Of a stretch of DNA of 64,000 nucleotides, positions 3,589-12,027 are shown one piece after another. The notes below the pieces were generated by a model. That model did not search any database. It was not told the origin of the DNA and worked only from the letters and a program-made list of their open reading frames with translations. Both the position numbers and the translations under genes were made by a program. The stretch comes from Spirochaetaceae bacterium (GTDB lineage: Bacteria > Spirochaetota > Leptospiria > Leptospirales > Leptonemataceae), in the NCBI GenBank assembly GCA_002730875.1, contig PCBI01000005.1, positions 901,191 to 965,190 of the forward strand, read 5' to 3'. How positions within the stretch are numbered: the first letter of the stretch is position 1; the number at the start of each line of letters is the position of its first letter.

Positions 3589-5539
3589 TTTTCTCTATTC
3601 TCCTCGCTTCCGGCTCCAACCCGGAATTCGGGGAAACCAGTGGAGCGCGCCGGCAAAGACCCATAGAAGTTCGTTCCGTTCCAGGCTTCTGACTTTCGCC
3701 TATTCATTCGTCCTTTTCGGCGGATTGCTGATCGGGACAACTGCTCTTGTGGCGAAGCCGAATCCCCTGGAGCAACCTCTATCCGGTCCGGAAGCGGAAC
3801 AAAGCCAGAATAAAGATACAATCCTGCAGGACCAGGGTCAGACGCCCGCTCTGGCTCTGGATTCGGTGCGCCTGCAGCTTAAGTGGAAGCATCAGTTTCA
3901 ATTTGCGGGTTACTACGCTGCCGTGGAAAAGGGGTTCTACCGGGAAGCTGGCCTGGATGTGCAGATTCTGGAAGCCCGGGAAGGCCAGGATACCATCGAA
4001 CGCGTACTGGACGGACATGCGGAATTCGGAGTAGGAACTACGGACCTGGTGCTTCTTCATCAAAAAGGGGAACCGGTGGTAGTGTTGGCTGTGATCTTTC
4101 AGCATTCGCCTTTGTCTTTGCTTCTGCGAAAGGACTCCGGCATTCAGACCCTTCATGGCCTGGAAGGGAAGCGAGTCATGATCGAGCCCCATTCCGCAGA
4201 ACTCTTTGCGTATCTGAATCGCGAAGGTGTTTCTCTGCATAAGTTAATACAGCCTCCCCATACCTTCAGTACCTCCGCCCTTGTTGAAGGCGAGGCGGAT
4301 GCGATGTCGGTGTACATCACCGACGAGCCTTATGCGTTGCGAAGACAGAATGTACCCTATTTGCTTTTTTCTCCCAGAGCGGCGGGCATTGATTTCTACG
4401 GAGATAACATGTTCACCACCGAGGCGCAAATTCATGATCATCCAGAAAGGGTTCGCCGCTTTCGAGAGGCCAGTCTTCGCGGGTGGCGCTATGCGATGCA
4501 GAACAAAGAAGAGATTGTGCAACTGATATACAATAAGTATAGCAAGCGACACACTCTGGATCATCTTCGCTTTGAAGCCCGCCAGATGGACTTACTCATG
4601 CCGGACATTGTAGAAATCGGTCACATGTATCCGGGTCGATGGGAACACATTGCCAGCGTATACTCTGAATTGAATATGATGCGTCCGGACTACGACCTGG
4701 ACGGCTTCATGTACGATCCGAATCCGGCGCCAGATCTGACATTTCTCTATATTGCGCTGGGCGTGACCTTTCTGGTTGCTGCGGCCGTTTCGGTCGTGGC
4801 CCTTATGATTCATCGACTCAACCTGGAGTTACGAAAGAGCGAGAATCTGCGGGTTGAGGCTGAGCGAATTATTCAGCATGACTTGAAGAGCCCTCTGGGC
4901 GTTATTCTGGGCTACACGGAAATGCTCATGGCAGAAGGGGGGGACTCTGCGAATGCCGATGTATATCGTCGGATCAACCGTTCCGCCGCACAAATGCTGG
5001 AAATGGTGAATCGTTCCCTGGATATTTCTGCCATGGAGTCCGGGAGCCATGCGCTGTCCCGAAATCCGGTGGATCTAAATCAGCTGCTCCAGGAAGTGCT
5101 GGCCGGATTTGCTCGAATGGCCAGAAGTAAAGAACTGACTCTATCAGCCTATTATCGCGATGCATTACTGGAAAAATCGCCGCCCTGTATGGTGTCGGGG
5201 GATGAACTCTACATAAAGACCATGCTGGAGAATCTAATCAAGAATGCGATTGAGGCGGCGCCGGAAGATAGCGTCGTATCGGTTTCCATTGGCAATGGAT
5301 CCGGAAACCCTCGGGAAACCACTGCTTCTACTACTATTGCGATTCACAATCAGGGCGTAATACCGGAATCGGTGCGAGGCACCTTTTTTGAACGCTATTC
5401 CCGAGGACCGGGCTCTGGAGGCGCCGGCCTGGGCACGTATAGCGCTCGGCTCATTGCCAGAGCCCATGGCGGCGATATTACGTTTACTACCGATGAAGCC
5501 AAAGGCACCGAGATCACGGTAACGTTGCCCGGTACCTAA
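3557..5539 (+). CDS. Sensor histidine kinase with periplasmic NMT1/THI5/SsuA-like substrate-binding domain
   Basis: TM segment, SBP-like domain ('QLKWKHQFQFAGYYAAVEKGFY...'), second TM, H-box 'HDLKSPLGVILGYTEML', HATPase N/G boxes ('NLIKNAIEA', 'GAGLGTYSARLIA'). The start may lie downstream of 3557. Confidence 0.8.
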   Translation: MAKTSEKTLTDFLYSPRFRLQPGIRGNQWSAPAKTHRSSFRSRLLTFAYSFVLFGGLLIGTTALVAKPNPLEQPLSGPEAEQSQNKDTILQDQGQTPALALDSVRLQLKWKHQFQFAGYYAAVEKGFYREAGLDVQILEAREGQDTIERVLDGHAEFGVGTTDLVLLHQKGEPVVVLAVIFQHSPLSLLLRKDSGIQTLHGLEGKRVMIEPHSAELFAYLNREGVSLHKLIQPPHTFSTSALVEGEADAMSVYITDEPYALRRQNVPYLLFSPRAAGIDFYGDNMFTTEAQIHDHPERVRRFREASLRGWRYAMQNKEEIVQLIYNKYSKRHTLDHLRFEARQMDLLMPDIVEIGHMYPGRWEHIASVYSELNMMRPDYDLDGFMYDPNPAPDLTFLYIALGVTFLVAAAVSVVALMIHRLNLELRKSENLRVEAERIIQHDLKSPLGVILGYTEMLMAEGGDSANADVYRRINRSAAQMLEMVNRSLDISAMESGSHALSRNPVDLNQLLQEVLAGFARMARSKELTLSAYYRDALLEKSPPCMVSGDELYIKTMLENLIKNAIEAAPEDSVVSVSIGNGSGNPRETTASTTIAIHNQGVIPESVRGTFFERYSRGPGSGGAGLGTYSARLIARAHGGDITFTTDEAKGTEITVTLPGT

Positions 5540-5667
5540 CATTTGGATTATCAACCAGGTTGCGAAACCATGCGCCGGGGCCAAAGAGCATTGCCGGCTA
5601 CGGTCAAGCGAGCGCGTCATATTCTTGCAGGAATACCAACCTGACCCCAACCCCTTCAGGACCCCTG

Positions 5668-7182
5668 TCAGTAGCCGTAAAGCTTCATACTCCAGGATGT
5701 GAATGTACCGTTGGCTGTACCGCGTACTCCTTGATCTCTCAGACGCAATGACCAGGTGCCATCCGCCGACTCACCCATGGTACGCAGCACACCAAATCGC
5801 CAGGTTCCGGTAAAGGGGCAGTTTCCGTTGGCTTCAATCGTCGGTGAGGCTACGGCAATATTAACGCAGATTCCGTCACTGCCCCTGGATAGAAGGATAC
5901 TTTGCGTCCCGGACGGAGACGTAAGAGTGATATCCAGATCGCGATAGTAGTTGTGACTGAAGGTAACGTTGACGTCTACGGACTCAATTGTGCTTATCCC
6001 GCTACCGCTCACCACAATGCTGTTTGTTACTCCGGTAGCGTTGCCGTCGGTAACGGTTGCACTCACTGTACTCGTAGAAGTCTGGAATGTCTTTTGTGTC
6101 GCCAGGCTGATCCAGTTCCGCGCCAGGTTTACTGCTGCGTTAGCATCTACCACGCCAAAGCCATATTTATGGTTGATGTTCAGTCCCGCCCCGTTGGTGG
6201 TCCAGTCCGAGTCCCCAGAGTTGTTCTTGCGCGCCGTACGTGCCAGGATCATGCGAACATCGCGCCAGGAAAGGTTGGGGTTGGCATAGAGCATCATCGC
6301 CGTTACTCCTGCTACTTCAGCGACGGCTGTGCCGGTGCCCGTGGCCAGCTTCGTATAATTCGAATCGCTATAGTCCGAGCCGGAACTGCCGTTGTTGTAG
6401 CCGCCGGCGCCCGTCGTATCGGTGGTGCGGATTCCAATATCTCCATTTCCTTTTGAGTGACCGCAAACTAGCAGGTTGGCGCCCTGTTCGGAAAATGATG
6501 CGCGGACTCCGTCGTGGCCCACCCCGCAGATGGCCATTACGCCGTGATAATTTGTATATCCATTGAGGTTGGAATTGTCTATACCCGAGAATGACGAAAC
6601 TGTATCGCCGTCGCCGGAACCAAAGAAGTAGAGCGCGCCCAGGCCGTTTCTGCCCAGGGATAGTCCGCTATCTATGGCGCTTCTCCATTCGCTGGTTGAG
6701 TCCTGGAACTTCCCGCTGAATTCAGGCTCCGACCATCCGTTGGCATAGACGGAAACTTCGGACAGGCCTCTTATCATCGCATCTGCGTCATTGGTCGTGC
6801 TTCTGTTCTGCGAAACGTTGAAGCCTCGCAATTTTGCATAGGGAGAAACACCGCGTCCCCCTTTGTTGTTTGGCTCCGCTGCAATGATGCCGGCCATGGC
6901 CGTGCCCAGTCCGGTACCGGCCGTTCCTGGATCGGTTCCTCCATTCGAATAATTATGGCTTTTGCCCCTTTCTACGTTATTCGCCAGGTCCTCATGGTCT
7001 ATGTCCAGGCCGTCGCTCACAATGGCAATGGATACTCCGGTGCCGCAGTTACCGGTATTCCAGAGATTACTGACGTTTGCATCTTCGCCGGAGGTGCCGC
7101 TGGTTTGCCCCGTATTCTCCAGGTGCCATTGATCAGAAAACAGGGAATCCGAGTTAGTGGAGCAGTTTGCTTGATTGAGCAA
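5668..7182 (-). CDS. Kexin/furin-like (S8B) subtilase homolog with P-domain, predicted catalytically inactive; possible pseudogene
   Basis: Blocks align to Kex2/furin: 'AIVSDGLD' vs 'AIVDDGLD', 'LGTAMAGIIAAEPNN' vs 'HGTRCAGEVAAVANN', 'GTGTAVAEVAGV..NPNLSWRDV' vs 'GTSASAPLAAGI..NKNLTWRDM'; P-domain 'DLDITLTSPSGTQSILL..WSLRL'. TTG start immediately after an in-frame TGA; no ATG or n-region. Confidence 0.7.
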   Translation of the reverse strand: MLNQANCSTNSDSLFSDQWHLENTGQTSGTSGEDANVSNLWNTGNCGTGVSIAIVSDGLDIDHEDLANNVERGKSHNYSNGGTDPGTAGTGLGTAMAGIIAAEPNNKGGRGVSPYAKLRGFNVSQNRSTTNDADAMIRGLSEVSVYANGWSEPEFSGKFQDSTSEWRSAIDSGLSLGRNGLGALYFFGSGDGDTVSSFSGIDNSNLNGYTNYHGVMAICGVGHDGVRASFSEQGANLLVCGHSKGNGDIGIRTTDTTGAGGYNNGSSGSDYSDSNYTKLATGTGTAVAEVAGVTAMMLYANPNLSWRDVRMILARTARKNNSGDSDWTTNGAGLNINHKYGFGVVDANAAVNLARNWISLATQKTFQTSTSTVSATVTDGNATGVTNSIVVSGSGISTIESVDVNVTFSHNYYRDLDITLTSPSGTQSILLSRGSDGICVNIAVASPTIEANGNCPFTGTWRFGVLRTMGESADGTWSLRLRDQGVRGTANGTFTSWSMKLYGY

Positions 7183-7569
7183 AGCCAGGAGCAGGGGAAG
7201 GTTGTTGGTGCGACTGCTGAATCAAACAGCACGTCTAACGTACGCCCTGGGTAGTAGATTTGGATGGTCTCAAGCTTTCCCTATTGAGAAACAGTTTGGC
7301 TCATGCCGCTATCCCTCTGGTACGCCGTTCAGCCGGAATCGGAACTCGCCTGGCGCCAGGTTGCGGGGGCACAGACTTGCCTGCCCAGGAATGAACTCGT
7401 TGTCCGGTGGTTAAATCCAAGGCTACCTCCGTGCGGCCCCTCCGGGCTGGCTATCCTCTTGCGGCTTCGCTGCATCCAGGGTTGGAATCGTGGCCGGAGG
7501 GGAAGGACATCCCAAAAATCGCTGTTCCACTTGCCTTCTGAGGCCAATTTTGCATATTGAGTTCTAACG

Positions 7570-8631
7570 ATGGCTGCTACTCAGAACTTACACGTACGAT
7601 CCTTTGAAAAACTAAGACCCGCCACCGAGCTTCTGAAAGAGATTCCGGCCTCTCCGGAAATCAGCAAGCTGGTGAGCGAAAGCCGTGCCACTATCGCGCG
7701 TATCCTTTCCGGGGAAGATCCCCGATTCATGGTTATATCCGGCCCGTGTTCTATCCATGACGAAAAGGCGGCGTTCGAATACGCCGAGCGCTTCGCCGCA
7801 CTGAGCAAGGAAATCGATGATAAGATCTATCCTGTGATGCGAGTGTATTTCGAAAAACCCCGTACCACGGTGGGCTGGAAAGGACTCATCAACGATCCCC
7901 ATATGGACGGGTCTTACGACATAAACACCGGGCTGGAAAAGGCCAGACGCATTCTTTTGAAGATCCTGGAGATGGGACTTCCCACGGCCACGGAATTTCT
8001 GGACCCATTCGTTCCTCAGTACACCGGCGATCTGGTCTGTTGGGCCGCCATTGGCGCGCGCACTACCGAATCCCAGACTCACCGGGAAATGGCCAGCGGC
8101 CTTTCCATGCCCGTAGGTTTTAAGAACAATACGGATGGAAATACCCAGGTGGCCCTGGAAGCAGTGGAGTCGGCGGCCCATCCGCATAACTTCCTGGGAG
8201 TGGACGAAAACGGAGCGGTAAGCGTGGTTCGTACCACCGGAAATCCGCACTGCCACATTATCCTTCGCGGAGGCCGCAGCAAACCTAACTACGATGAAGC
8301 GAGTGTGGCCGAAGTCATGAAAGCCATGGAAAAATCTGGTTCCCGCAATCGGATCATTGTGGATTGTTCCCATGCGAATTCCGGCAAGCAGCACGGCAAG
8401 CAGGAGATTGCCCTTCAAGAGATTGTAGCTCAGCGACGCTCAGGAAACGATCAACTCGTAGGCATCATGCTGGAAAGCCATCTGTTCGAAGGAAATCAGA
8501 AGATCCCGGATGACCTGAAGGATCTGAAATACGGAGTCTCGGTCACCGATGCCTGTATTGATTTTCCCACTACCGAGCGCCTCTTGCGCGATGCGCATGC
8601 GAACTTGAGCCCCGTTGCGGCCGGGGTGTAG
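7570..8631 (+). CDS. aroG: 3-deoxy-7-phosphoheptulonate (DAHP) synthase, class I (AroF/G/H type)
   Basis: 'GPCSIHD', 'VYFEKPRTTVGWKGLINDP', 'IVDCSHANS'; 353 aa is typical class I-alpha length. Confidence 0.9.
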   Translation: MAATQNLHVRSFEKLRPATELLKEIPASPEISKLVSESRATIARILSGEDPRFMVISGPCSIHDEKAAFEYAERFAALSKEIDDKIYPVMRVYFEKPRTTVGWKGLINDPHMDGSYDINTGLEKARRILLKILEMGLPTATEFLDPFVPQYTGDLVCWAAIGARTTESQTHREMASGLSMPVGFKNNTDGNTQVALEAVESAAHPHNFLGVDENGAVSVVRTTGNPHCHIILRGGRSKPNYDEASVAEVMKAMEKSGSRNRIIVDCSHANSGKQHGKQEIALQEIVAQRRSGNDQLVGIMLESHLFEGNQKIPDDLKDLKYGVSVTDACIDFPTTERLLRDAHANLSPVAAGV

Positions 8632-11865: not shown

Positions 11866-11949
11866 TGGGCAGGGGAGGATTCGAACCTCCGTAGACTCGC
11901 GTCGGCAGATTTACAGTCTGCTGCCATTAACCACTCGGCCACCTACCCG
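11866..11949 (-). tRNA. tRNA-Tyr (anticodon GTA), type II long variable arm
   Basis: Reverse complement GGGTAGGTGGCCGAGTGGTTAATGGCAGCAGACTGTAAATCTGCCGACGCGAGTCTACGGAGGTTCGAATCCTCCCCTGCCCA folds as a cloverleaf; anticodon loop ACTGTAAAT. Confidence 0.85.
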
Positions 11950-11950
11950 A

Positions 11951-12027
11951 TGGTGCTGCCTGTAGGCCTCGAACCCACGACCTGCTGATTACAAGTCAGC
12001 TGCTCTACCAGACTGAGCTAAGGCAGC
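11951..12027 (-). tRNA. tRNA-Thr (anticodon TGT), CCA encoded
   Basis: Reverse complement GCTGCCTTAGCTCAGTCTGGTAGAGCAGCTGACTTGTAATCAGCAGGTCGTGGGTTCGAGGCCTACAGGCAGCACCA; acceptor stem pairs fully; anticodon loop CTTGTAA; 1 nt from tRNA-Tyr. Confidence 0.85.

What the first reader, a model, noticed from the sequence alone, without database searches (positions are those of the whole stretch)
5668..7272. Kexin/furin-like subtilase homolog with P-domain but all three catalytic residues replaced and a stop-truncated signal peptide
The three catalytic blocks align unambiguously to Kex2/furin. Asp maps to Ser ('AIVSDGLD' vs Kex2 'AIVDDGLD'). His maps to Leu ('LGTAMAGIIAAEPNN' vs 'HGTRCAGEVAAVANN'). 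Ser maps to Gly ('TGTGTAVAEVAGV' vs 'TGTSASAPLAAGI'), followed by a convincing 'NPNLSWRDV'/'NKNLTWRDM' match. The proprotein-convertase P-domain is intact ('DLDITLTSPSGTQSILL...WSLRLRD'). The 504-codon frame stays open. However, it begins with TTG right after an in-frame TGA at 7222-7224, which sits inside what reads like a signal-peptide n/h-region ('RRAV*FSSRTNNLPLLLALLNQANC'), and there is no ATG. It is therefore either a recently decaying gene or a pseudo-protease (binding protein) that has lost its secretion signal. A bacterial P-domain convertase is uncommon, and a dead one is unusual.
Basis: partly seen in the sequence, partly recalled or inferred. Interest (0 to 1): 0.7.

Follow-up and report, generated by a model that had tools for sequence, protein, structure and literature searches.

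The report
Dead kexin-like protease missing its export signal
This gene encodes a furin/kexin-type protease look-alike that lost all of its catalytic residues long ago but was kept by selection in a small group of marine Leptospira-like spirochaetes; in this species it has also lost the start of the gene that encodes its export signal, so this copy may or may not still be used.

Summary
The minus-strand ORF 7182..5668 (504 codons, TTG start) is a kexin/furin-type S8 subtilase with a P-domain (Kex2 E=2e-46; AF2 pLDDT 94.9). Asp→Ser, His→Leu, Ser→Gly, and the oxyanion Asn→Asp as well.

Three points in the interpretation need correcting.
- Prokaryotic P-domain convertases are common: more than 695 protein clusters, mostly prodomain-less lipoproteins.
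- The catalytic death is old and conserved, not recent decay. Four 90%-identity clusters (65–100% identical) form a monophyletic clade (100/100) and all lack the four residues. dN/dS is 0.05–0.10 in both domains. Ca2+ ligands and six cysteines are kept. The closest active relatives are 61% identical.
- The signal peptide is not cut by a stop. Homology to orthologues ends sharply at 7218/7219, and the start codon, Shine-Dalgarno sequence and lipoprotein signal peptide present in orthologues are simply absent.

The truncation is real. An independent Tara Oceans assembly is identical, and a second allele is also truncated.

The truncated ORF still shows some constraint between alleles: ω=0.38 (p=0.02) and no indels. 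It is therefore either still used without a signal peptide or a very young relic.

Verdict: a pseudoprotease lineage, a new variant of a known kind, of moderate interest.

The parts
5668..7182 (-). 504-codon ORF (TTG start at 7182-7180, TGA stop at 5670-5668) encoding the catalytically dead kexin-like protein. It is identical to database protein P0001 (MBU42852.1, 'Spirochaetaceae bacterium' MAG).
6154..7044 (-). Peptidase_S8 (subtilase) catalytic domain, residues 47-343 counting the TTG as 1.
   Evidence: Pfam PF00082 at 3e-26. AF2 model with pLDDT 94.9. Foldseek to Kex2 gives TM 0.84/0.88.
5680..5988 (-). Proprotein-convertase P-domain, residues 399-501.
   Evidence: Pfam PF01483 at 9e-16. 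dN/dS 0.05-0.09 within the dead clade.
7015..7017 (-). AGC = Ser56 at the catalytic Asp position (Kex2 D175). Ser in all dead-clade members and Asp in 114 of 114 active relatives.
6907..6909 (-). CTG = Leu92 at the catalytic His position (Kex2 H213). Leu or Ser across the dead clade.
6610..6612 (-). GAC = Asp191 at the oxyanion-hole Asn position (Kex2 N314). Asp in all dead-clade members.
6331..6333 (-). GGC = Gly284 at the nucleophile Ser position (Kex2 S385). Gly, Asp or Arg across the dead clade, so this position is unconstrained.
7183..7221 (-). 13 in-frame codons (FSSRTNNLPLLLA) between the TGA and the TTG. They are homologous to the linker that follows the lipobox in orthologues. They are not conserved in the second allele L003 and are probably untranslated here.
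7222..7224 (-). In-frame TGA. In an ungapped register it falls on the lipobox Cys codon (TGC) of P0002. It already lies in the stretch where identity is at chance level, so the match is probably coincidental.
7219..7523 (-). Non-coding stretch that occupies the place of the orthologues' Shine-Dalgarno sequence, ATG and signal-peptide codons. It has stops in all three frames, no homology to the orthologous loci, no repeat in the window, no Rfam hit and no unusual fold. The two alleles differ by indels that are not multiples of three.
6490..6610 (-). Tract just after the oxyanion position (DGDTVSSFSGIDNSNLNGYTNYHG; the S1-pocket loop in Kex2). Here allele L003 differs by 24 substitutions, with dS 1.5 and omega 0.07. 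This is a gene-conversion tract from an unsampled dead-clade lineage.

Best explanation
The gene belongs to a small monophyletic clade of kexin/furin-type (MEROPS S8B-like) pseudoproteases found in marine Leptospirales-like spirochaetes.

Shown:
- The clade's ancestor lost the catalytic Asp, His and Ser and the oxyanion Asn.
- Since then the two-domain fold, both Ca2+ sites, six cysteines and the P-domain have stayed under strong purifying selection.
- Orthologues carry a lipoprotein signal peptide and have no prodomain.

Inferred: the orthologous protein is a lipid-anchored cell-envelope protein that binds something rather than cleaving it. This is the same logic as the subtilisin-like pseudoproteases CspC and CspA of Clostridioides difficile, or mature PCSK9. 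Changes shared by the whole clade fall in the active-site motifs (the Kex2 S272 position, the Pro four residues after the nucleophile, the conserved Leu that is Ser124 here, and Ile250 replaced by Arg). The S1 Asp325 is Asn in most members. The ligand is therefore probably not the dibasic peptide that kexins bind.

Shown for this species: the 5' end of the gene is gone, including the Shine-Dalgarno sequence, the ATG and the signal peptide with its lipobox cysteine. Homology to orthologues stops at 7218/7219. What remains is a signal-less ORF starting at TTG 7182.

Inferred for this species: the remaining ORF is still under some constraint, so it is probably still expressed as a non-exported protein (my estimate about 0.55-0.6). 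Otherwise it is a very young relic (about 0.4).
For: Fold and family.
- Searches identify the fold and family.
- Triad and oxyanion replacements are placed by three alignments.

The dead clade.
- P0001, P0002, P0003 and P0004 carry SLDG, SLDG, SLDD and SSDR at the four positions. 114 of the 120 nearest clusters carry DHNS.
- The clade is monophyletic in 100 of 100 NJ bootstraps. It is sister to the active P0005/P0006 in 79 of 100.
- Pairwise dN/dS is 0.068-0.10. By domain it is 0.07-0.10 for S8 and 0.05-0.09 for the P-domain.
- Ca1 ligands D135, D184 and N227 and Ca2 ligands D277 (as Asp or Glu), D320 and E350 are kept. Six cysteines are conserved.
- Clade-specific changes fall in active-site motifs.
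- Orthologue P0003 sits in the same DAHP-synthase / histidine-kinase neighbourhood as the window gene.
- Orthologue N-termini are signal peptides ending in a lipobox cysteine. GGAG-type Shine-Dalgarno sequences precede their ATGs.

The truncation.
- The homology break lies at 7218/7219.
- Independent assembly L001 is identical, and the exact protein is indexed in 229 blocks of the collection.
- The second allele, L003, also lacks the signal peptide. None of the six members of the 90%-identity cluster has one.

Residual constraint on the truncated ORF.
- Window against L003 outside the conversion tract gives 12 non-synonymous and 10 synonymous changes, omega 0.38, p=0.024.
- There are no indels in about 1500 coding bases. 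The 338-base upstream region has 12 substitutions and 2 gap columns, and the replaced patch at about 7190-7215 adds a 7-nt length difference.
- Tajima relative-rate test for window against P0002 gives 26 against 28 unique changes, so the window lineage is not accelerated.
Against: - No function or ligand has been demonstrated. Gene neighbourhoods are not conserved across the clade, so they give no functional clue.
- Only four 90%-identity clusters are known. dS is near saturation, so the omega values are approximate.
- TTG 7182 has no Shine-Dalgarno sequence. No sigma-70-like promoter was found between 5400 and 7700.
- Six conserved cysteines and two Ca2+ sites point to a protein built for the oxidising cell envelope, so a cytoplasmic copy may not fold.
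- The post-truncation constraint rests on only 22 substitutions. Gene conversion from functional relatives may inflate it, and such a tract is demonstrably present.
- A related genome keeps only a P-domain fragment of the P0004-type gene. The protein can therefore be lost.
Confidence: 0.7

Rival explanations
1. The window copy is a young unitary pseudogene. The already-dead lipoprotein gene lost its 5' end, is no longer translated or exported, and has not yet had time to accumulate stops.
For: - The start codon, Shine-Dalgarno sequence and signal peptide are missing.
- TTG 7182 has no Shine-Dalgarno sequence, and no promoter-like site was found.
- The cysteines and Ca2+ sites suit an exported protein.
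- Within the species, this gene and its upstream region are far more diverged than the flanks: dS 0.03-0.08 against 0.01.
- A relative retains only a P-domain remnant.
Against: - The 504-codon ORF is intact in both alleles.
- omega is 0.38 (p=0.024) outside the conversion tract.
- There are no coding indels, while indels occur in the adjacent non-coding DNA.
- The window lineage shows no rate acceleration relative to P0002.
- The truncated form appears fixed and widespread, with 229 index blocks.
Confidence: 0.4
2. The whole lineage is decaying: the triad loss is itself a sign of a pseudogene, as in the first reader's 'recently decaying gene'.
For: All four catalytic residues are replaced. The nucleophile and His positions vary freely within the clade.
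Against: - Full-length open reading frames occur in at least five diverged lineages.
- dN/dS is 0.05-0.10 in both domains.
- Structural residues are conserved.
- The AF2 model is confident.
Confidence: 0.03
3. The TGA and the missing ATG are a sequencing or assembly error, or the TGA is recoded, and the real gene has a normal signal peptide.
For: None beyond the oddity of the start.
Against: - An independent Tara Oceans assembly is identical across 7100-7580.
- A second allele has the same degenerate upstream region, and all three frames are closed.
- The gene's own stop codon is TGA.
- Homology to the orthologues' signal-peptide DNA is absent, not merely interrupted.
Confidence: 0.02
4. It is still an enzyme that uses a non-canonical catalytic set, for example the conserved Ser56 and Asp191.
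For: Ser at the Asp position and Asp at the Asn position are invariant in the clade.
Against: - No conserved residue sits at the nucleophile position (Gly, Asp or Arg) or the general-base position (Leu or Ser).
- Neighbouring motif residues (the Kex2 S272 position and the Pro four residues after the nucleophile) are also lost.
- I know of no precedent for this in subtilases.
Confidence: 0.03

Closest known systems
Kexin (Kex2) / furin proprotein convertases (MEROPS S8B)
   Same: Same two-domain architecture, S8 catalytic domain followed by a P-domain. Sequence E-values are 2e-46 and 3e-44, and TM-score is 0.84-0.89. The conserved motifs and Ca2+ ligands are shared.
   Different: No Asp/His/Ser triad and no oxyanion Asn. 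No prodomain. The kexin S2 acidic pair (D210, D211) is absent and the S1 Asp325 is Asn. The orthologues are bacterial lipoproteins rather than eukaryotic secretory-pathway enzymes.
Aeromonas sobria serine protease ASP (PDB 3HJR, 3WQB), the characterised bacterial kexin-like protease
   Same: A bacterial S8 plus P-domain protein. E=2e-40 and TM 0.84.
   Different: ASP is catalytically active, is about 600 residues long with extra insertions, and is crystallised with a separate chaperone, ORF2 (3WQB). From my own knowledge it also has no N-terminal propeptide. The protein here is dead and is a lipoprotein in the orthologues.
CspC and CspA subtilisin-like pseudoproteases of Clostridioides difficile (PMC7200643, PMC6636752)
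   Same: Bacterial S8-family members whose catalytic triad is incomplete. They are conserved and act by binding and signalling rather than by cleavage (abstracts).
   Different: They belong to a different S8 subfamily, have no P-domain, and are spore germination proteins of Firmicutes. No partner active protease or ligand is known here.
Closest active relatives: Leptospiraceae and Leptonemataceae lipoproteins P0005 to P0008 (L011 to L013)
   Same: 55-61% identical. Same length, the same six cysteines, the same N-terminal layout (lipobox, acidic linker, hydrophobic stretch, second Cys) and no prodomain.
   Different: They retain D/H/N/S and the S1 Asp. P0005 has a Kunitz-type inhibitor gene immediately upstream.
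PCSK9 (comparison from my own knowledge)
   Same: A subtilase-fold protein whose mature function is non-catalytic binding.
   Different: PCSK9 keeps its triad for autocleavage, belongs to the proteinase-K branch and has a different C-terminal domain.

Membership tests
Peptidase S8 (subtilase) superfamily, by homology and fold | Significant match to the S8 catalytic-domain profile, and a subtilisin-like alpha/beta fold | tested here: met
   PF00082 at 3e-26, full-length 1-288/288. AF2 pLDDT 94.9. Foldseek matches to Kex2, furin and subtilisin.
Kexin / proprotein-convertase subfamily (S8B) | P-domain (PF01483) directly C-terminal to the catalytic domain | tested here: met
   PF01483 at 9e-16, 1-86/86. 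Alignment to Kex2 and furin runs through the P-domain.
Kexin / proprotein-convertase subfamily (S8B) | Catalytic triad Asp-His-Ser in that order, plus an oxyanion Asn (Asp in PC2) | tested here: not met
   Ser56, Leu92, Gly284 and Asp191 occupy these positions. It is therefore a non-peptidase homologue, not a peptidase member.
Kexin / proprotein-convertase subfamily (S8B) | Ca2+-binding ligands of sites 1 and 2 | tested here: met
   The positions equivalent to D135, D184, N227, D320 and E350 are conserved. D277 is Glu. This is a sequence-level test only.
Kexin / proprotein-convertase subfamily (S8B) | Acidic S1 and S2 pockets for basic residues (Kex2 D325, D210, D211, D176) | tested here: not met
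   D325 is Asn, and D210 and D211 are Gly and Thr. Only D176 is kept. The active bacterial relatives also lack the D210/D211 pair.
Kexin / proprotein-convertase subfamily (S8B) | N-terminal prodomain acting as an intramolecular chaperone and inhibitor | tested here: not met
   Pfam finds only two domains. Orthologues have about 20-45 residues between the lipobox Cys and the first catalytic-domain motif.
Bacterial lipoprotein (Sec/SPII substrate) | N-terminal signal peptide ending in a lipobox cysteine | tested here: not met
   The window copy has none: all three frames upstream are closed and homology ends at 7218. Orthologues P0002 to P0008 do have one, for example MNAKRLVVALLPFLLLAASC. That was judged by eye, because no SignalP-type tool was available.
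Pseudoenzyme (conserved non-catalytic homologue) | Loss of catalytic residues together with purifying selection across diverged orthologues | tested here: met
   A monophyletic dead clade (100/100) with dN/dS 0.05-0.10.
Pseudoenzyme (conserved non-catalytic homologue) | A demonstrated non-catalytic function or ligand | not testable with these tools
   Needs biochemistry or genetics. Gene context gave no clue.

The most novel reading that the evidence does not exclude
A previously undescribed family of lipid-anchored, catalytically dead kexin-like proteins in marine Leptospirales has turned the convertase cleft and P-domain into a ligand-binding module, acting as a receptor, decoy or regulator in the way CspC does. 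Its pocket loop is exchanged between lineages by gene conversion. In the widespread species of this window the protein has been retargeted to the cytoplasm by loss of its signal peptide, yet is still maintained.
Probability: 0.25. Interest if true: 0.6.

Novelty: new variant of a known kind. Interest (0 to 1): 0.4.

Why it matters
- Pseudoenzymes derived from proteases are established regulators. In bacteria, however, the only well-studied subtilase examples are the C. difficile Csp proteins.
- A second, unrelated case in the kexin/P-domain branch would be a natural experiment on what a convertase scaffold can do without catalysis. It is conserved for long enough to saturate synonymous sites, and active sisters at 61% identity are available for comparison.
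- The finding corrects the impression that P-domain convertases are rare in prokaryotes.
- It gives a clean example for annotation. The protein is currently labelled 'serine protease', although it cannot be one by the canonical mechanism.
- The window copy is a dated example of 5' truncation whose consequences can be tested in Tara Oceans expression data.

Tried and rejected
- Alternative starts or frames supplying a signal peptide. All three frames of 7150-7332 were translated and none works. The GTG 7232 frame is in frame only in allele L003 and does not encode a signal peptide.
- TGA recoding. Rejected because the gene itself ends in TGA.
- A structured RNA or mobile element in the 300-nt upstream filler. 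There is no Rfam hit, no copy elsewhere in the window or in the loci, and folding z-scores are 0.4 and 0.1.
- A sigma-70 promoter scan of 5400-7700 found nothing. This is weak evidence either way.
- A paralogue in the window. tblastn found only this locus.
- The genome-contig scan did not retrieve the window's own species; the best hit was 61% identical, from a Leptonemataceae MAG. I therefore could not look for an active or signal-peptide-bearing paralogue in the same genome.
- Apparent His-less loci (DGNS or DANS) appeared in my tblastn survey of GTDB loci, mostly Marine Group II archaea. The four I inspected were one-residue misalignments, so I read the whole group as such.
- A Kunitz inhibitor gene as a conserved partner of the active relatives. 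It is present only in L011.
- The match of the TGA to the lipobox TGC codon as evidence for a nonsense mutation. Rejected because upstream identity is at chance level, 19/66.
- The raw window-against-L003 omega of 0.23. It was down-weighted after I found that 24 of the substitutions come from one conversion tract.
Full report
WHAT IS THERE

On the minus strand an ORF runs from TTG 7182 to TGA 5668 (504 codons). In-frame TGA codons lie at 7224-7222 and 7272-7270, and there is no ATG, GTG or TTG between them. The plus-strand ORFs over the same span are short antisense ORFs; I did not examine them further.

The product matches Pfam Peptidase_S8 (3e-26, full model) and P_proprotein (9e-16, full model). 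By sequence it matches the solved structures of Kex2 (2e-46), furin (3e-44) and the Aeromonas sobria protease ASP (2e-40) from end to end. An AlphaFold2 model built on a 120-sequence alignment is very confident (pLDDT 94.9, pTM 0.95). Its best structural matches are Kex2 and furin (TM 0.84-0.89), followed by ASP.

THE CATALYTIC RESIDUES

The HMMER alignment to Kex2, a 14-sequence MAFFT alignment and a second alignment that includes Kex2 all agree:
- Kex2 Asp175 corresponds to Ser56.
- His213 corresponds to Leu92.
- Ser385 corresponds to Gly284.
- The oxyanion Asn314 corresponds to Asp191.

HOW UNUSUAL IS IT

Prokaryotic S8 plus P-domain proteins are not uncommon.
- One search returned 695 clusters at E<=1e-10 among only 8000 scored candidates.
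- A scan of species-representative genomes found them in Leptospira, Leptospiraceae and Leptonemataceae MAGs, Gammaproteobacteria, Nitrospiraceae, Myxococcota, Planctomycetota, cyanobacteria and many Marine Group II archaea.
- Most begin with a signal peptide ending in a lipobox cysteine, and none has a prodomain.

What is rare is the dead state. Among the 120 nearest 90%-identity clusters, 114 have D/H/N/S. The six exceptions are the window protein's own group (SLDG, SLDG, SLDD, SSDR), P0009 (DRDG) and P0015 (DQNS). My tblastn survey of the GTDB loci threw up apparent His-less sequences, mostly archaeal. The four I inspected were one-residue misalignments, so I read the group as such.

THE DEATH IS OLD AND THE PROTEIN IS CONSERVED

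The window protein (identical to P0001), P0002 (84% identity), P0003 (72-74%) and P0004 (65%) form a clade with 100/100 NJ bootstrap support. The clade is sister to the active Leptospiraceae and Leptonemataceae proteins P0005 and P0006 (61% and 60% identity; 79/100).
- All members have Ser at the Asp position and Asp at the Asn position.
- The His position is Leu or Ser, and the nucleophile position is Gly, Asp or Arg. These two positions are therefore no longer constrained.
- P0003 sits between the same DAHP synthase and NMT1-HisKA histidine kinase genes as the window gene, so it is a positional orthologue.

Nei-Gojobori dN/dS is 0.068 for window against P0002, 0.086 for window against P0003 and 0.10 for P0002 against P0003. 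By domain it is 0.07-0.10 for the catalytic domain and 0.05-0.09 for the P-domain. dS is 1.3-2.8, near saturation, so these ratios are approximate. The direction is not in doubt.

The residues that bind Ca2+ in Kex2 are retained: D135, D184 and N227, and D277 (as Asp or Glu), D320 and E350. Six cysteines are also retained. The assignment of these residues as Ca2+ ligands rests on my own knowledge of the Kex2 and furin structures.

Sixteen positions are at least 85% conserved in active relatives and changed in every dead member. Thirteen lie in the catalytic domain. Besides the four catalytic residues, they include the position equivalent to Kex2 S272 (the Ser of the SWG motif), the Pro four residues after the nucleophile, and the conserved Leu that is Ser124 here. 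Arg127 replaces Kex2 Ile250, and the S1 Asp325 is Asn in most members.

This is the signature of a pseudoenzyme: the scaffold is preserved and the cleft is remodelled. It is not the signature of a decaying gene.

THE N-TERMINUS

Orthologues start with a Shine-Dalgarno sequence, an ATG and a lipoprotein signal peptide:
- P0002: MNAKRLVVALLPFLLLAASC
- P0003: ...LTLISSC
- P0004: ...LTLALSC

A short linker follows, then a second hydrophobic stretch and a second cysteine.

At the DNA level, ungapped identity to P0002's locus is 46/66 downstream of 7218 and 19/66 upstream, which is chance level. BLASTN homology likewise begins at 7218. The TGA falls in register with P0002's lipobox TGC codon, but it lies inside the non-homologous part. 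I read that match as coincidence, and the event as a deletion or replacement of the 5' end rather than a nonsense mutation.

The roughly 300 nt that fill the gap (7219-7523) have stops in all frames. They have no Rfam match, no copy elsewhere and no unusual folding energy.

NOT AN ARTEFACT

- A Tara Oceans contig assembled independently (L001, 1.05 Mb) is identical across 7100-7580.
- The exact 504-residue protein is indexed in 229 blocks of the collection.
- None of the six sequences in its 90%-identity cluster has a signal peptide.
- A second allele (L003, encoding P0125, about 96% identical) has the same degenerate upstream region. It differs from the window there by a 1-nt indel, a 7-nt indel and a replaced patch at about 7190-7215. 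DNA upstream of TTG 7182 therefore evolves as non-coding.

IS THE TRUNCATED COPY STILL USED

Evidence for continued use:
- Both alleles keep the 504-codon frame.
- Outside one conversion tract they differ by 12 non-synonymous and 10 synonymous changes (omega 0.38; p=0.024 against neutrality).
- There are no indels in about 1500 coding bases, whereas the adjacent 338 non-coding bases carry 12 substitutions, 2 gap columns and, next to them, the replaced patch with its 7-nt length change.
- A relative-rate test shows no acceleration of the window lineage compared with P0002 (26 against 28 unique changes).

Evidence against:
- TTG 7182 has no Shine-Dalgarno sequence, although the orthologues have GGAG.
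- No promoter-like site was found.
- Cysteine pairs and Ca2+ sites suggest a protein designed for the cell envelope.
- Some of the 'purified' differences were clearly imported. The tract 6490-6610 has dS 1.5 against 0.03 elsewhere.
- Within the species, this gene and its upstream region are much more diverged than the flanking genes. The histidine kinase has dS 0.01, and the DAHP synthase shows no differences over the 165 bases compared.
- A related genome has reduced the P0004-type gene to a P-domain fragment.

I put 'still expressed without a signal peptide' at about 0.55-0.6 and 'very young relic' at about 0.4.

MECHANISM

Shown: a kexin fold without catalytic residues, conserved, and lipid-anchored in the orthologues.

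Inferred: it acts by binding. The cleft and P-domain would serve as a recognition surface for a ligand that is no longer a dibasic peptide, since the pocket has lost Asp325 and gained Arg127. The closest functional precedent in bacteria is the pair of subtilisin-like pseudoproteases CspC and CspA of C. difficile, which sense germinants and control the active CspB (PMC7200643, PMC6636752). Whether the dead clade regulates an active paralogue could not be tested, because only 64 kb of the genome is available and the window contains no paralogue.

COMPARISON AND NOVELTY

By homology and architecture the protein belongs with the S8B kexin-like proteins. It fails the defining triad test, so it is a non-peptidase homologue. 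It also lacks the prodomain and the kexin S2 acidic pair, as do its active bacterial relatives.

Three literature searches found no description of a conserved dead kexin-type lineage in bacteria. The library does not cover most subscription journals.

I rate it as a new variant of a known kind, with interest 0.4. It is a solid, conserved pseudoenzyme clade with active sisters for comparison. It is taxonomically narrow (four clusters) and has no functional handle yet, and the window copy itself may be a relic.

Noticed in passing
window 7524-7564 (+ strand, just upstream of the DAHP synthase ATG at 7570): A 41-nt stretch is 97.6% identical to the equivalent position in L006, L007 and L008, although synonymous sites between these genomes are saturated. 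By eye it contains TTGCCT, a spacer of 16-17 nt, then CATATT. It is probably the conserved promoter or leader of the DAHP synthase gene.
   Followed up: partly
window 6490-6610 compared with L003: Within one species, where the flanking genes have dS of about 0.01, a tract of about 100 nt after the oxyanion position carries 24 substitutions (dS 1.5, omega 0.07). It is a short gene-conversion tract from an unsampled dead-clade lineage. It covers the loop that forms the S1 pocket wall in Kex2.
   Followed up: partly
L004 and L005, 5932-6303: A related genome (4.86-Mb contig) keeps only residues 415-538, the P-domain, of the P0004-type gene. It is 93.5% identical in protein but only 83% in DNA, and lies next to an amino-acid permease gene. 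It is called as a 101-residue protein (P0131) in 56 index blocks. It is either a remnant or a stand-alone P-domain mini-gene.
   Followed up: partly
L011 5646-5924: A Kunitz/BPTI-type serine-protease inhibitor gene lies immediately upstream of the closest active relative, P0005. A Cys-spacing pattern search found no other instance in the window or in any other fetched locus.
   Followed up: yes
N-termini of P0002 to P0008, P0046 and P0117 (the window equivalent is 7183-7221): In the Leptospirales subclade the lipobox cysteine is followed by an acidic GGDD-like linker, a second strongly hydrophobic stretch (LLLLxxL) and a second conserved cysteine, all before the catalytic domain. The role of this segment is unknown. 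No bacterial member has a prodomain.
   Followed up: no
P0009 and P0015 (database proteins): These are independent losses of catalytic residues in the same family (DRDG and DQNS). P0009 shares Arg119, Arg127, Asp191 and the S1 Asn with the dead clade, although the tree places it outside the clade together with its active sisters (96/100). This may be convergence or a long-branch artefact.
   Followed up: partly
window 11866-11948 and 11954-12027 (-): Two adjacent tRNA genes. They are the only Rfam gathering-threshold hits in the 64-kb window.
   Followed up: no
L001 / P0001 index statistics: The exact protein occurs in 229 blocks of the collection, and 61 of these have contigs longer than 1 Mb. 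That is unusually good and frequent assembly for an uncultured marine spirochaete. The species was nevertheless not retrieved from the GTDB species-representative collection.
   Followed up: no
L010 and L001: A P0004-type dead gene (52-kb contig) and the window-type gene (1.05-Mb contig) come from the same Tara sample, ERZ908389. GC content (0.51 against 0.53) does not tell whether they are two species or two paralogues of one genome.
   Followed up: partly
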